A DNA stretch of 64,000 bases from Nitrosopumilus sp. (GCA_965207445.1 CBDBLX010000002.1:1239849-1303848), one strand, 5' to 3'. Positions 10,905-19,381 are shown, counted from the stretch's first letter. Made by a program: numbers and translations. The notes: generated by a model not told the origin, from the letters alone.

Positions 10905-11084
10905 TTACATATTTTTCCTAAATCCTAAAGACGGTGCAACTTCTCTAAAGCATTGTCTGCACAACATCAAGTTGTACTTTTGTATAACACCTGTGTATGC
11001 ACCACATCTTTTGCACCATCTAGAACCGCGCCCAAAGTCGTGCTTTTTTCTCCCTGTAAATTCGTATGATCTATCTTTTGCCAT
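10905..11084 (-). CDS. rps14: 30S ribosomal protein uS14 (absent from ORF track)
   Basis: Hand translation [28 protein letters not shown]...LCRQCFRE. Confidence 0.95.
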
Positions 11085-11977
11085 TATGTTGCTACCTCTA
11101 CTCCAAACTTTGAGACTATGAATCTTTTTGCGTCCTCGCGTGATATGACATGTGTATGTCCTATACTTGCTCTGTGTTTGCTTCGTTTACGTATGCTGTA
11201 TCCGGGCCGTGCAAGTGCAACTGATACTCCTAGGCCAAGTATTCCTATTTGTGGCTCATACTTGACACCTGGTATGTCAATATGCTCTCGTATTCCAAAT
11301 GAATAATTTCCAAAGTTATCAAATGAGCGACCATTCACGATATTTCCCTTTGCTTCTAATAGTCGCTTTAATAGTTCATGGGCTTTATTTCCTCTGACAG
11401 TGACAGAGACTCCTATTGGTTCACCCTTTCGCACACCCCAGTCTCTTTGACTATCTCGTGCATTACGTTGGCTTGGTCTGCTTCCTTGTGTAATCTGTTC
11501 TAGGGCTTTTTTTGCAATGTTTATTGACTCGCCTGATCTACCCATGCCCATATTCAAGACTATTTTTTCAAGGTATATCTTTTTCATTGGATTGTCATTA
11601 TTGTCATCATCTTTTTTGCTTTCTTGTTGTGTGTTTGGTTGTGATGCTGTTTCTACAGATTGGTCTGATTGGGGTGCTGACTCTGATACTTCTGACTCTG
11701 ATACTTCTGACTCTGATACTATCGCCGCATCATCAGATGTATCTTTTTGAGTCGTTGTATCTTTTACCTGTAATTCATCAGAATCATCACTAGCAGATGT
11801 ACTTTGCGTTTGCTTTGTAATGGATGCATTTATTGTTTGTAAATCCACATCGCATACATTTTTGACAGAGTCCTTCATCTGGGCACGTAATTGAGGTGTA
11901 GGACATTTTCCTAATGTAATGAGATCATCTGCACTTTTCAGATCTTGCTGTGCTGGTATATCTTGCTGCGTTGTCAT
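11084..11977 (-). CDS. rpl5: 50S ribosomal protein uL5 with ~125-aa N-terminal extension
   Basis: Core from [30 protein letters not shown] coupling to rps4e. Confidence 0.95.
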
Positions 11978-12699
11978 TATACTCGTACCTCTATTACAGG
12001 TTTGTCCTTGCCTATTGTCATTATTATATCTGCAGGAATCTCTATTGTACGTTCATCTAATTCAAGCAAGACACGCTTTGGCAAATTAAATGTGCCTGGT
12101 GATATTGTTATTATCTTGCCAATACCTCCTGCATTTATTCCACGTGTGACTAGTGCCTGGGAGCCTTCCTCAAACTTTATCACATCAAGTATCTTTTGCT
12201 CTGGTACTTGTAAAAGGCAGGTGTCTCCAATCTTTACTGCAGTGTCAGTTATGATTGATCGTCCATCGTGGAATCCAACTTGCATTTTATTGTGAGATAT
12301 TGTGGTCTTTTTTGTGACTCTGACTAGTTTCTTGTTTCTCTCAGATGCGTCCTTGATCTTTATTGGTGCTAACAATTTACCTTTTATTGGAACTAGTCTA
12401 TATGCATCATCAACACCATCAAGCTCTATTATATCCATCAATCCAATGGCATGGTGCAAAGACTTGCGTACTATGCCATCTACCTTTATCTTTCCTGCAT
12501 ATATGGTCGCCTTTGCTTCACGTAGAGTCGTGACGATCTTTAACGTGTCGCGTAAAAACACCGCAGTTGGGATTGATACGTGTTTTCCGTGAGGACCGGG
12601 TTTTACAGTAACTACAAAGCGTTTGTCTTTGCGTGTAATGCCCCAGAAAAGTGGTGCCATTTGGCGCTTTAGTTTTTTGCTTCCTGATATACTGACCAT
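11977..12699 (-). CDS. rps4e: 30S ribosomal protein eS4
   Basis: KLKRQMAP, PGPH, S4e fold motifs. Confidence 0.97.
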   Translation of the reverse strand: MVSISGSKKLKRQMAPLFWGITRKDKRFVVTVKPGPHGKHVSIPTAVFLRDTLKIVTTLREAKATIYAGKIKVDGIVRKSLHHAIGLMDIIELDGVDDAYRLVPIKGKLLAPIKIKDASERNKKLVRVTKKTTISHNKMQVGFHDGRSIITDTAVKIGDTCLLQVPEQKILDVIKFEEGSQALVTRGINAGGIGKIITISPGTFNLPKRVLLELDERTIEIPADIIMTIGKDKPVIEVRV

Positions 12700-16809: not shown

Positions 16810-17121
16810 TCAAATCATACCCACATCCGTTGCAAGGTCCCTTGCATGCTCTGCATTATCAAATTTAACAAATGCCTTTTTGCCATATATTGTTCTAGTT
16901 GTGTTTATACGTATTACGTTTTTACCATATAAGACTTTGATTGCTTTTGCAATGTCACGTTTTGATGCAGTTCTCTCAACAAGAAAACATATGACTGCAT
17001 TAGTTTCGACCATTGAGAATGTGCGTTCTGTCACATATGGTCGAATTACTATTCGAGCAGCTGTATCTGCATCCATATTTGGGGATTTGTCATGTGGTGA
17101 TAATTGTGAGCCGAGTCTCAT
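16810..17121 (-). CDS. rpl23: 50S ribosomal protein uL23
   Basis: RPYVTE, GKKAFVKF; ATGA overlap with rpl4. Confidence 0.95.
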   Translation of the reverse strand: MRLGSQLSPHDKSPNMDADTAARIVIRPYVTERTFSMVETNAVICFLVERTASKRDIAKAIKVLYGKNVIRINTTRTIYGKKAFVKFDNAEHARDLATDVGMI

Positions 17122-18341
17122 TGTGCGCGCACCTCTGGTGTAATTATGGTTTGCAGATGTGTAGACTTTATTTTGTCTAACTGTGCGATGGCAGATTCAG
17201 TATATATGGTCAATCTTGCAGCAGTGGCACCGGGTGCCAAGTCTAGTACACTTAGTTCTGATACTGCCTTTGCATCAACGCCTGGCAATGAACCTATGGC
17301 ATTTTTTAGATCTGCTGCATGGTCGTGTATGACAAACAGTATGCTCTTTCCGGCCTTTTTTGAGCGTCCACGAAGTGATGGTCTACCTGAGCGTGCCTTG
17401 CGACCATATAGTCGGTTTACATCTTGCATCAAGTTTAGACGCTCTAGTAATAATACTACATTGCGTGTTGTCGTATAATTTGCAATATTATCATTCACAA
17501 CGATTGGAAACTTTTGGCCGTACTGTGCAGTGTATGAGTTGATCTTATGCCCGCGTGAGGAGATCAAATACTCTGATGCAGTAGATGCAACAGCAGAACA
17601 TAGTGCCAATCTCTTTTCCTTTTTGTTTATCTGTTTGTAAATTACCTTTTGTGATGTGGGTGGGTGTGCTTGGCGTCCACCTCTAGTTGATGCGACCTCT
17701 GCACCTTCTCCTCTACGACGTCCACCACCACCTGTAGCACGCGCAACTCTAGATATCCCTCTACCTGTGGGTGGGTCATTGGAGTCTGCAACTACATCCA
17801 TTCCGGCAGTCGGGTGTCTGCCTTGTGGTTGGAACGAGTGTGACTCTAAGTTAACATATACTTTATGAATTAGATCTGGCCTGTATGGAGTGCTAAATAT
17901 GAGTGGAAGATCAACTGATATTACAGCAGAGTTGTCTTGTACAATGGTGTCAGGTGTGTCATCGTCTTTTTTGTTGCTGTACTCTTTATCATCATCATCA
18001 TCATCATCACCGCCATCATCATAATTATCATCATCATCACCGCCATCATTTGTGATATACTCAGGCTTTGTCGTGTTCTCATCTTTGTCGTATACTGTAC
18101 TATGGACAGTATCATCTGATGTATCCTCTAGTATATCTATCTCTGGTCTCTTATCAAGTGACACATCAGCAAGTATATCTACAGAATTAAGATTGTTTTG
18201 CGTATCGCTACTTTGTGTACTATCTGAGCCCTCACTGTGTTGAGTGTTACTATTACCATCATCATCATCATAATTTGTGACATGCTCAGGCTTTGTCGTG
18301 TTCTCATCTTTGTTACTATTATTATCCCCATCATCTGCCAT
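17118..18341 (-). CDS. rpl4: 50S ribosomal protein uL4 with ~140-aa acidic N-terminal extension
   Basis: LPLIFSTPYRPDLI, GGRQAHPP, DLAPG; TAATG coupling to rpl3. Confidence 0.95.
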   Translation of the reverse strand: MADDGDNNSNKDENTTKPEHVTNYDDDDGNSNTQHSEGSDSTQSSDTQNNLNSVDILADVSLDKRPEIDILEDTSDDTVHSTVYDKDENTTKPEYITNDGGDDDDNYDDGGDDDDDDDKEYSNKKDDDTPDTIVQDNSAVISVDLPLIFSTPYRPDLIHKVYVNLESHSFQPQGRHPTAGMDVVADSNDPPTGRGISRVARATGGGGRRRGEGAEVASTRGGRQAHPPTSQKVIYKQINKKEKRLALCSAVASTASEYLISSRGHKINSYTAQYGQKFPIVVNDNIANYTTTRNVVLLLERLNLMQDVNRLYGRKARSGRPSLRGRSKKAGKSILFVIHDHAADLKNAIGSLPGVDAKAVSELSVLDLAPGATAARLTIYTESAIAQLDKIKSTHLQTIITPEVRAQ

Positions 18342-19381
18342 TATACAACAACCTCCAGTATGTTTGGCTTTGAGACCTTTGCAGGTTTGTTTCTAATCTG
18401 ACTTCTCAACTTTACTAGTCTACGATATGTGCCAGGAATAGATCCTTTTAGTATAATATACTCGCCCTTTACTAGTCCAAAGTGCTTGTATCCGCCTGCA
18501 GGATTGATTCCACCTTTGCTATTTTGGTTATCACTATTTTTATGATCATCATTTAAATCATCTGTTGTATTTCCTATGACCATTATCCGTTTGTCATATT
18601 CTATTCTTTGATGAAATCCAAACTGTCCTGCTCTTGGAACAGTATACATGACACTTTGCGGTGATATTGGACCTAGTGAACCGACCTCACGAACAGTCTT
18701 TCTTGACTTGTGTTGTTTCTTTTTGACATTCCATCTCTTTAGAACACCTTGCCATCCCTTGCCCTTTGTGATTGCTGCAACATCAACACTACTACCAGTA
18801 TCAAATGTATCTGATATACTAATCTGTTTGCCAAGGTTACTTTTTAGATACTCAAACTGACTCTTTATGTCTCCTCCACCAACAGCACTCTCAAACACAT
18901 ATGGCTTTTTTTGATCCAGTCCTGCTTGTCTTGGAGATACTGCTAGTATTGCGTATAACTCTACTATCTTATTTAGCGACTTTTCTGCATCATCAATTGC
19001 ACTCTCATCACGGTTTTTGAGTTTGATTACTTTGGACATATTTCGTGGAATGTCATCTGTATAAACATCAAATGCAGCATACCTGCCAATTGAGACATCT
19101 TTTGCATATCCGCGTATACCTAGTACTAGCACTGGTGGTGTTGCAAGTACCGTACCTAGACTTACTAGTTGTTTTCCTGCATTTGGTACCTTTTCTCTAT
19201 CATCAATACTTACAACTTGCACACATCCGGCTTTGAATCCACAATGCGCTAGTATGTGTGGCTCATCGGACTCATCAGTTGTAGGCCATGCCCTAATACG
19301 AGCCTCCATGCTTTTAGCACGTATGCGAGGTGAGTATGCCAAACTTCCTCTACGCGGTGAGTGTCTCTTTCTTGCTCCCAT
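18341..19381 (-). CDS. rpl3: 50S ribosomal protein uL3
   Basis: HSPRRGSLAYSPR, TKGKGWQG, RAGQFGFH. Confidence 0.97.
   Translation of the reverse strand: MGARKRHSPRRGSLAYSPRIRAKSMEARIRAWPTTDESDEPHILAHCGFKAGCVQVVSIDDREKVPNAGKQLVSLGTVLATPPVLVLGIRGYAKDVSIGRYAAFDVYTDDIPRNMSKVIKLKNRDESAIDDAEKSLNKIVELYAILAVSPRQAGLDQKKPYVFESAVGGGDIKSQFEYLKSNLGKQISISDTFDTGSSVDVAAITKGKGWQGVLKRWNVKKKQHKSRKTVREVGSLGPISPQSVMYTVPRAGQFGFHQRIEYDKRIMVIGNTTDDLNDDHKNSDNQNSKGGINPAGGYKHFGLVKGEYIILKGSIPGTYRRLVKLRSQIRNKPAKVSKPNILEVVV

What the first reader, a model, noticed from the sequence alone, without database searches (positions are those of the whole stretch)
11084..19381. Several ribosomal proteins carry large acidic low-complexity extensions
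Seen: uL5 has ~125 extra N-terminal residues, uL4 ~140 extra N-terminal residues, uL24 ~165 extra C-terminal residues, uS3 a charged tail and uL3 a D/N insert (TDDLNDDHKNSDNQNSK). All are stop-free, and uL5, uL4 and uL24 keep the TAATG stop/start overlaps with neighbours at the extended end. Established: archaeal uL4, uL5 and uL24 cores are much shorter and basic. Inference: a lineage-specific ribosome with a polyanionic disordered coat (self-chaperoning, factor docking, protection), or neutral slippage expansion under relaxed selection.
Basis: partly seen in the sequence, partly recalled or inferred. Interest (0 to 1): 0.8.

Follow-up and report, generated by a model that had tools for sequence, protein, structure and literature searches.

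The report
Repeat-bloated proteins in an archaeon
The long acidic tails on this archaeon's ribosomal proteins are real, but they are the most visible part of a genome-wide habit of adding short repeated DNA to many ordinary proteins, much as malaria parasites do, and not a special ribosome invention.

Summary
Observation confirmed: uL4 is 407 aa (relatives 270-272), uL5 297 (173-174), uL24 282, uS3 277, uL3 346. (1) The uL24 and uS3 tails are family-wide and variable (131-422 and 246-441 aa); eL31, eS17 and uS11 also carry tails in small-genome relatives. (2) The accretion is proteome-wide: in 395 orthologue pairs this genome has 109 internal insertions of 10 aa or more against 10; 71 of 382 non-ribosomal proteins gained 20 aa or more, against 9 of 41 ribosomal ones (p=0.67). 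Tandem repeats are about 4.5 times denser than in small relatives, and 96% of coding arrays keep frame. A sister clade at about 60% GC and an independent lineage do the same, often at the same sites, with unrelated sequence. Best reading: short duplications accumulate under weak selection in probable sponge symbionts and survive where they are in frame, hydrophilic and on the surface. A ribosome-specific residue remains: the ribosomal tails are more acidic (p=0.005), and uL5, uS11, uL13 and uS3 hold short conserved islands.

The parts
18341..19381 (-). uL3 gene, 346 aa (relatives 329-334)
18515..18565 (-). uL3 D/N loop insert. The same loop varies in length among solved archaeal uL3 sequences and holds an unrelated insert in the sister clade (uL3 373-377 aa)
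18351..18356 (-). Shine-Dalgarno-like GGAGGT in the last codons of uL3, ahead of the uL4 start at the TAATG overlap
   Evidence: the 16S 3' anti-SD is intact
17118..18341 (-). uL4 gene, 407 aa, whole-protein net charge -20 (relatives 270 aa, +15/+16)
17931..18341 (-). uL4 extra 137 residues (34% D+E), predicted disordered. Contains a 63-nt duplication (18026-18088 / 18251-18313, 87% alike) and 3- and 30-bp tandem arrays
18129..18143 (-). uL4 residues 67-71: predicted strand (block pLDDT 75) aligning with the ancestral first strand of the N-terminal hairpin, which splits the extension into an N-terminal addition and a hairpin-loop insert (inferred)
16810..17121 (-). uL23, 103 aa (+15; an internal ATG at codon 16 leaves this gain uncertain)
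14885..15718 (-). uS3 gene, 277 aa; C-terminal tail 14885-15136 is a family-wide variable linker
14888..14971 (-). uS3 terminal acidic motif of about 28 aa, conserved across the family
14646..14888 (-). uL29, 80 aa (+12 at the C-terminus; 80 aa also in the sister clade)
14323..14649 (-). RNase P p29, 108 aa against 88: a non-ribosomal protein of the operon that is also lengthened
13970..14323 (-). uS17, 117 aa (+10 at the N-terminus)
12699..13547 (-). uL24 gene, 282 aa, net charge -20
12699..13211 (-). uL24 C-terminal tail, 170 aa, D/N/S/T/G-rich, with a perfect 10-copy Asp-codon run at 12817-12847 and 12- and 15-bp arrays
11977..12699 (-). eS4, normal length (240 aa); internal control
11987..11991 (-). 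Shine-Dalgarno-like GAGGT ahead of the uL5 upstream start; none ahead of internal Met131
11084..11977 (-). uL5 gene, 297 aa (relatives 172-176)
11594..11977 (-). uL5 N-terminal extension, about 125 aa, mostly predicted disordered
11822..11935 (-). uL5 residues 15-52: non-low-complexity island with two Cys, 26 of 38 identical in relative P0122; weakly predicted helix (pLDDT about 60); no match elsewhere
11677..11720 (-). perfect 15-bp tandem array in the uL5 extension; copy number is polymorphic (one more in-frame unit in run X4 and in P0121)

Best explanation
The extensions are translated, mostly disordered segments made by a genome-wide excess of short tandem duplications (modal unit 11-15 bp, plus triplet runs) that are poorly purged in this Nitrosopumilaceae lineage, which is probably a sponge symbiont. 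Step 1 (shown): duplications arise everywhere, also between genes. Step 2 (shown): in genes, almost only frame-keeping ones survive. Step 3 (shown for sites, inferred for cause): they persist at termini and surface loops that tolerate them, the same sites in separate lineages, behind the start codon and ribosome-binding site that overlap the upstream gene. Step 4 (inferred): a tolerance filter keeps hydrophilic readings; the other residues follow the genome's GC content, while Asp stays at 11-15%. On the ribosome the filter is stricter against basic tails, which would stick to rRNA or mRNA, so its tails end up more acidic. Step 5 (inferred): weak selection in a host-restricted population lets them stay. 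The process enlarged tails that the family already had (uL24, uS3, eL31, eS17, uS11) and opened new sites (uL4, uL5, uL13, the uL3 and uL15 loops). A few older segments have become conserved and may have been co-opted.
For: Proteome-wide: 395 reciprocal pairs against an 800-kb sample of two small relatives give internal insertions of 10 aa or more 109 to 10, C-tails 20 aa longer 19 to 3, forced N-extensions 18 to 1; control G043 vs G047 1 to 0 in 101 pairs. Affected proteins include TopoVI-B, FKBP, RIO kinase, GrpE, DnaK and an Alba paralogue. Ribosomal and non-ribosomal frequencies do not differ at 20 and 50 aa. Tandem arrays per 100 kb: 23.3 here, 12.8 in G147, 19.2 in G135, 5.0 and 5.2 in the references; period a multiple of 3 in 307 of 321 coding but 98 of 238 intergenic arrays. 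Live in-frame 15-bp polymorphism in the uL5 extension. Same behaviour in G147 (18 to 0 in 78 pairs) and G135 (14 to 0 in 65 pairs), with composition shifting from N/D/T/S to G/S/D/A; G135 lies outside the clade. Same-site inserts with unrelated sequence: 4 of 13 and 4 of 14, about 0.2 expected. No motif shared among tails: 1 of 55 pairs at 5/200 shuffles. Extension 47% against core 90% identical in P0122. 169 of 2285 called ORFs have two or more near-identical copies, many transposase-like by inspection. LIV-type permeases in G000, G147 and G135 but not G043 or G047, a marker of sponge AOA in PMC13552627. Low pLDDT over the extensions.
Against: Ribosomal extensions are more acidic than non-ribosomal ones (median net charge per residue -0.135, n=11, against -0.048, n=61; p=0.005). 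Gains of 100 aa or more are nominally enriched in ribosomal proteins (4 of 41 against 9 of 382, p=0.03). About 1,070 tail residues with net charge -193 sit on nine very abundant proteins, a real cost (this includes the family-wide tails). Conserved islands exist in uL5, uS11 and uL13, and at the uS3 end. Length at uL4-N and uL5-N is raised in nearly all close relatives, which could mean selection for length. No mutational cause was found: Fen1 has an open frame in 5 of 5 genomes, and NucS is also not found in the small relatives. No dN/dS, RNA or protein data were obtained.
Confidence: 0.65

Rival explanations
1. Adaptive polyanionic ribosome coat: acidic disordered tails, several near the peptide exit (uL24, eL31, uL23, uL29; positions recalled) and the mRNA channel (uS3, uS11, eS17), act by charge and length as a built-in chaperone or solubility shell, or as docking arms.
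For: More acidic than other inserts; uL4, uL5, uL24 and uS3 turn net negative; the uL24 tail goes from net +0.07 in environmental relatives to -0.23; uL5-N lengthened independently in G135; family-wide tails at five sites even in 1.6-1.7 Mb genomes; PMC6821194 argues that ribosomal low-complexity regions are functional.
Against: Equal frequency in non-ribosomal proteins; equally acidic inserts in RIO kinase, FKBP and others; the sister clade moves the acidic mass of uL4 to the other terminus and has a mixed-charge uL3 insert; the uS7 extension is basic; most ribosomal proteins and both large rRNAs are of normal length; no shared motif.
Confidence: 0.2
2. Proteome-wide adaptive acidification or spacing (solubility, osmotic or ionic adaptation, or protection inside the host), of which the ribosome is one case.
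For: Asp is 11-15% of insert residues in three genomes of very different GC. Halobacterial low-complexity regions are acid-enriched and read as adaptive in PMC6821194.
Against: 14 of 61 non-ribosomal inserts are net basic and the median is only -0.048; intergenic DNA carries the same repeat excess; an Asp run is the only hydrophilic open reading of its triplet repeat (genetic code).
Confidence: 0.1
3. The N-terminal extensions are not part of the mature proteins (internal starts or proteolysis), or are assembly errors.
For: uL5 has an internal Met131 at a position conserved in the family, and uL23 and p29 have internal ATGs. No protein-level data.
Against: uL4 has only one other start (GTG, codon 60), still about 80 codons before the core; SD-like motifs precede the upstream starts and not Met131; open frames are far beyond chance; length variants keep frame; C-terminal tails and internal inserts cannot be skipped; short-read contigs agree.
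Confidence: 0.05

Closest known systems
Low-complexity regions of prokaryotic ribosomal proteins (PMC6821194: archaeal S3, S24, L10, L12; bacterial S2, S16, L25)
   Same: Charged low-complexity tails on ribosomal proteins, placed on the ribosome surface; uS3 and eS24 are among the affected proteins here too.
   Different: There mostly C-terminal, A/E/K-rich and about 36 aa on average (archaeal LCRs overall). Here D/N/S/T-rich, 70-200 aa, also N-terminal and in loops, on uL4, uL5, uL13 and uL24, and part of a proteome-wide excess.
Plasmodium-type low-complexity insertions in housekeeping proteins (recalled; no paper on it was read here)
   Same: Asn/Asp-rich, rapidly diverging inserts at surface loops and termini of conserved enzymes; sites recur while sequence does not; composition follows genome GC content.
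   Different: This is an archaeon with operons and coupled starts, 40% GC (about 60% in the sister clade); inserts are shorter and richer in Asp and Thr than in Lys; about a fifth of proteins are affected.
Tandem repeats of Borg elements that create disordered regions (PMC9879509)
   Same: Archaeal setting; rapidly evolving tandem repeats in and between genes that yield amino-acid repeats and disorder.
   Different: Borg repeats lie on extrachromosomal elements and are said to be virtually absent from the host genome; here they are in the core genes of a cellular chromosome and are often decayed.
Acidic low-complexity regions of halobacteria (PMC6821194)
   Same: Acid-enriched low-complexity segments in archaeal proteins.
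   Different: Relatives here are marine ammonia oxidisers, not salt-in halophiles; acidity is confined to added segments, and a quarter of those are not acidic.
Known genome traits of sponge-associated Thaumarchaeota (PMC7848895, PMC9289680, PMC13552627)
   Same: Larger genome, lower coding density, many transposases, branched-chain amino-acid transporter.
   Different: In the passages seen these papers do not describe lengthened core proteins or ribosomal extensions.

Membership tests
Archaeal S10-spc ribosomal protein operon | Canonical cores and gene order uL3-uL4-uL23-uS19-uL22-uS3-uL29-p29-uS17-uL14-uL24-eS4-uL5-uS14-uS8-uL6 | tested here: met
   single uL4 and uL5 copy in the genome
   9 of 41 against 71 of 382 at 20 aa, p=0.67; nominal only at 100 aa
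   p=0.005, n=11 against 61
   True for uL4 (270-271 aa in 62 of 62) and uL5 (173 aa in 31 of 31); tails are present but short and K/E-rich for uL24 and uS3
   needs proteomics, cryo-EM or genetics
Plasmodium-type low-complexity insertion load (features recalled) | Inserts widespread in housekeeping proteins | tested here: met
Plasmodium-type low-complexity insertion load (features recalled) | Recurrent sites, non-homologous sequence, composition tracking GC content | tested here: met
   (small numbers: 4 of 13 and 4 of 14 sites)
Plasmodium-type low-complexity insertion load (features recalled) | Inserts disordered and external to the fold | tested here: inconclusive
   low pLDDT in two models, but the alignments are shallow there
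Plasmodium-type low-complexity insertion load (features recalled) | Inserts dispensable | not testable with these tools
   needs deletion tests
Ribosomal tails with a shared terminal domain (earlier scan notes on DPANN archaea) | Common module at the ends of several tails | tested here: not met
   1 of 55 pairs at 5/200 shuffles; islands unique in the proteome
Sponge-associated Nitrosopumilaceae | LIV-I branched-chain amino-acid permeases | tested here: met
   two adjacent PF02653 hits in G000; other subunits not checked; about 7% of free-living genomes also have it
Sponge-associated Nitrosopumilaceae | Habitat record | not tested
   sources are coded

The most novel reading that the evidence does not exclude
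Host-associated ammonia-oxidising archaea have repeatedly entered a eukaryote-like regime in which neutral repeat accretion builds large disordered regions, and the ribosome is co-opting them: a tuned acidic shell of about 1,000 residues around the exit tunnel and mRNA channel, with newly born functional modules (the two-Cys helix island of uL5, the roughly 50-aa helical island of uS11, the uL13 motif) that are kept by selection. This would show, inside Archaea, how ribosomal protein extensions begin.
Probability: 0.2. Interest if true: 0.8.

Novelty: new variant of a known kind. Interest (0 to 1): 0.5.

Why it matters
Prokaryotic proteomes are normally poor in low-complexity sequence (0.07% of archaeal residues by the strict measure of PMC6821194). 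Here a cellular archaeon has lengthened about a fifth of its conserved proteins, ribosomal proteins included, and the same happened independently in a second lineage, while close small-genome relatives stay compact. That gives a replicated natural experiment for an open question: whether disordered extensions of eukaryotic proteins and ribosomes start as drift-driven accretion and are co-opted later. It also maps which sites on an archaeal ribosome tolerate 100-200 extra acidic residues. It is less surprising than a dedicated new ribosome coat would have been.

Tried and rejected
Assembly artefact: rejected. Second, normal copies of uL4 or uL5: none found. Long uL4 open frames in G018 and other high-GC genomes: for G018 the frame runs back under uL3 and the coupled start gives 270 aa, so open-frame lengths were not counted as extensions. 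Shared terminal domain or gene conversion among tails: none. Mobile or donor origin of the extensions: only compositional matches in the genome; the Atlas gave no usable hit for the uL5 island, which shows neither novelty nor absence. rRNA expansion: 23S 2989 and 16S 1471 nt against models of 2987 and 1478. Repair defect as cause: Fen1 open in 5 of 5; NucS not discriminating. Contig C1 against C2 as a strain pair: 19 of 52 coding and 7 of 58 intergenic gap events were multiples of 3, but BLAST splits the gaps, so this is inconclusive. Expression: no RNA holder listed, which is no evidence either way. The JGI metagenome scan gave no member of the extended clade among the 80 loci kept of 290; they served as controls. 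First-pass length comparison was inflated by mis-called starts in the references and was replaced. uS4, eS8 and a few small ribosomal proteins were not located. dN/dS could not be run: no DNA for P0122 or P0002. PMC5995209 is not held and was not read. No complex prediction was run.
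Full report
Setting. The window lies in a 2.61-Mb, two-contig assembly at 39.6% GC. Named protein hits are Nitrosopumilus, so this is a Nitrosopumilaceae-type ammonia oxidiser. The finding covers the S10-spc ribosomal operon on the minus strand, in canonical order, each core confirmed by Pfam.

In 20 same-genus genomes drawn by the tool, uL4 is 270-272 aa (20 of 20), uL5 173-174 (19 of 19 with the gene in the locus) and uL3 330-332, against 407, 297 and 346 here. Among 80 environmental loci (the best 80 of 290), uL4 is 270-271 in 62 of 62 measurable cases and uL5 173 in 31 of 31. 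The extensions are open far beyond chance (0, 8 and 0 of 20,000 shuffles). uL4 has no alternative start near its core. Shine-Dalgarno-like motifs lie before the upstream starts of uL4 and uL5 but not before uL5 Met131, and the 16S anti-SD is intact. Short-read contigs of one sample agree with the assembly outside three skipped repeat patches; one run carries one more 15-bp unit, in frame, in the uL5 extension. Translation is inferred, not shown: no RNA holder was listed.

Two tiers of tails. Tier one is family-wide. uL24 is 133-272 aa and uS3 249-326 aa in the 19 relatives, with K/E-rich, often tandemly repeated tails; in 20 further genomes, chosen as closest or as likely long, they reach 422 and 441 aa. 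eL31, eS17 and uS11 carry variable tails even in the 1.64- and 1.71-Mb genomes G043 and G047. The uS3 tail ends in a roughly 28-aa acidic motif that is conserved across the family. Tier two is clade-specific. G000 groups with G081, G085, G097, G143 and G147 (support 1.0; FastTree on 12 proteins, 45 taxa, G024 left out, root uncertain). These genomes, at about 60% GC, are lengthened at the same genes: uL3 373-377, uL4 313-343, uL5 198-203, uL24 237-253. In the protein database the 21 best uL5 hits are all 188-302 aa while nearly all later ones are 173, and 10 of the 12 uL4 hits ranked 2-13 are 294-382 aa; the top hit of each search is a strain of this same organism and is not independent. G135, outside the clade, independently has uL3 366, uL4 359, uS3 384 and uL5 372. 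Outside the window G000 also has eL31 284, uS11 255, uL13 221 and eS17 175 aa.

Anatomy. The extra DNA is built of repeats: a perfect 10-copy Asp-codon run in uL24, a perfect 15-bp array in uL5, 30-bp arrays and a 63-nt duplication in uL4. AlphaFold gives block pLDDT of about 34-60 over the extensions. One exception is uL4 residues 67-71, a confident strand that aligns with the first strand of relatives; the uL4 segment is therefore probably an N-terminal addition plus a hairpin-loop insert. The uL3 insert falls in a loop whose length already varies among solved archaeal uL3 sequences. Both large rRNAs are of model length.

The decisive test: is it ribosomal? I called genes with a simple self-trained caller (2285 in G000) and compared them with 800 kb sampled from G043 and G047 (856 genes called). 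Among 395 reciprocal pairs G000 has 109 internal insertions of 10 aa or more against 10, 19 against 3 longer C-tails, and 18 against 1 forced N-extensions; the control between the two references gives 1 against 0 in 101 pairs. Inserts are N 12, D 11, T 11, S 9%. Of 382 non-ribosomal pairs, 71 gained 20 aa or more, 32 gained 50 and 9 gained 100. Of 41 ribosomal proteins with a reference length the numbers are 9, 6 and 4 (p=0.67, 0.24, 0.03). The methods differ somewhat, 13 of the 41 were partly picked because I had seen extensions, and about 15 further ribosomal proteins that look normal by Pfam had no reference and were left out, so the last p-value is generous. G147 (18 against 0 in 78 pairs) and G135 (14 against 0 in 65 pairs), each from a 400-kb sample, behave alike, with G/S/D/A replacing N/D/T/S at high GC. 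Insert sites recur with unrelated sequence: 4 of 13 for G147 and 4 of 14 for G135, about 0.2 expected.

Mechanism. Tandem arrays number 23.3 per 100 kb in G000, 12.8 in G147, 19.2 in G135 and about 5 in the references. Periods peak at 11-15 bp and are multiples of three in 307 of 321 coding but only 98 of 238 intergenic arrays. So duplication acts on all DNA and selection sorts by frame. 169 called ORFs have two or more near-identical copies, in families of up to 29 that look like transposases on inspection. G000, G147 and G135 carry LIV-type permeases and the references do not; PMC13552627 links this transporter to sponge symbionts (passages). Host restriction and weak selection are thus inferred, not measured. 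I found no repair loss to blame. Earlier notes of this scan describe off-target CRISPR spacer insertions in this genome, some adding 24 aa (unchecked); they may explain a minority of inserts, not these repeat-built tails.

What remains ribosome-specific. Ribosomal extensions are more acidic than other inserts (median -0.135, n=11, against -0.048, n=61; p=0.005) and turn uL4 and uL24 from about +14 to -20. A filter against RNA-sticking basic tails explains this without a new function, but a charge-based function is not excluded. Short islands are conserved: uL5 residues 15-52 are 26 of 38 identical in P0122, whose whole extension is 47% and core 90% identical; a roughly 50-aa uS11 segment and a short uL13 motif are shared with G147 (0 of 300 shuffles each). 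No module is shared between tails.

Literature. Ten full-text searches turned up no description of these extensions or of proteome-wide inserts in Nitrosopumilaceae; the library lacks most subscription papers. Seen: PMC6821194, passages and section 6: low-complexity regions are frequent in ribosomal proteins, mostly C-terminal and A/E/K-rich; its supplementary lists, which I did not open, may include thaumarchaeal uS3 or eS24 tails. PMC7848895, PMC9289680, PMC13552627, PMC11764897 and PMC9879509: passages only. The Plasmodium comparison and the positions of proteins around the exit tunnel are recalled.

Verdict. Real, and more general than reported: a repeat-driven, eukaryote-like lengthening of core proteins, seen in two separate lineages of probably host-associated archaea, with the ribosome as its most conspicuous case and a few possibly co-opted islands. 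New variant of a known kind; interest 0.5.

Noticed in passing
G000:C2:907576-909222 (L126:1077-2723): Alba paralogue of 548 aa with about 460 residues of acidic S/T/P tandem repeats, each with two Cys, before the Alba domain.
   Followed up: partly
window 14888-14971 and all relatives: Family-conserved acidic motif of about 28 aa at the end of uS3, tethered by a linker that varies about tenfold in length; the best candidate for a real tethered function.
   Followed up: partly
G000:C2:2287501-2288268 (uS11) and 1885606-1886271 (uL13): Clade-specific N-terminal extensions with conserved islands shared with G147.
   Followed up: partly
window 21123-22898: 591-aa ORF with an N-terminal hydrophobic stretch and a near-identical internal duplication of about 210 aa; no Pfam family over cut-off.
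   Followed up: no
window 16584-16809: The uL23-uS19 spacer is about 225 nt here and 278-287 nt in the sister clade, against about 44 nt in most relatives; it holds a 15-bp array. uL2 is encoded elsewhere (C2:375691).
   Followed up: no
window 19531-19604: 21-bp array, 3.5 copies, in the divergent promoter region between uL3 and the KsgA/Dim1-type methyltransferase gene.
   Followed up: no
G000:C1 (121 kb): Largely a 98-99% identical second version of the start of C2, with different insertion-sequence content; probably a second strain.
   Followed up: partly
G000 whole genome: Large insertion-sequence-like families (29, 25, 21, 17, 11, 11 copies) and giant repeat proteins of 3766 and 4351 aa.
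   Followed up: no
L068 (G148), L073 (G156), L036 (G007): Extreme tandem-repeat tails on uL24 (422, 357, 255 aa) and uS3 (441 aa in G156) in genomes with normal uL5.
   Followed up: no
G162:C1:1898326-1913435: uL4 and uL5 lie about 14.6 kb apart instead of about 5 kb, which suggests an insertion or break in the operon.
   Followed up: no
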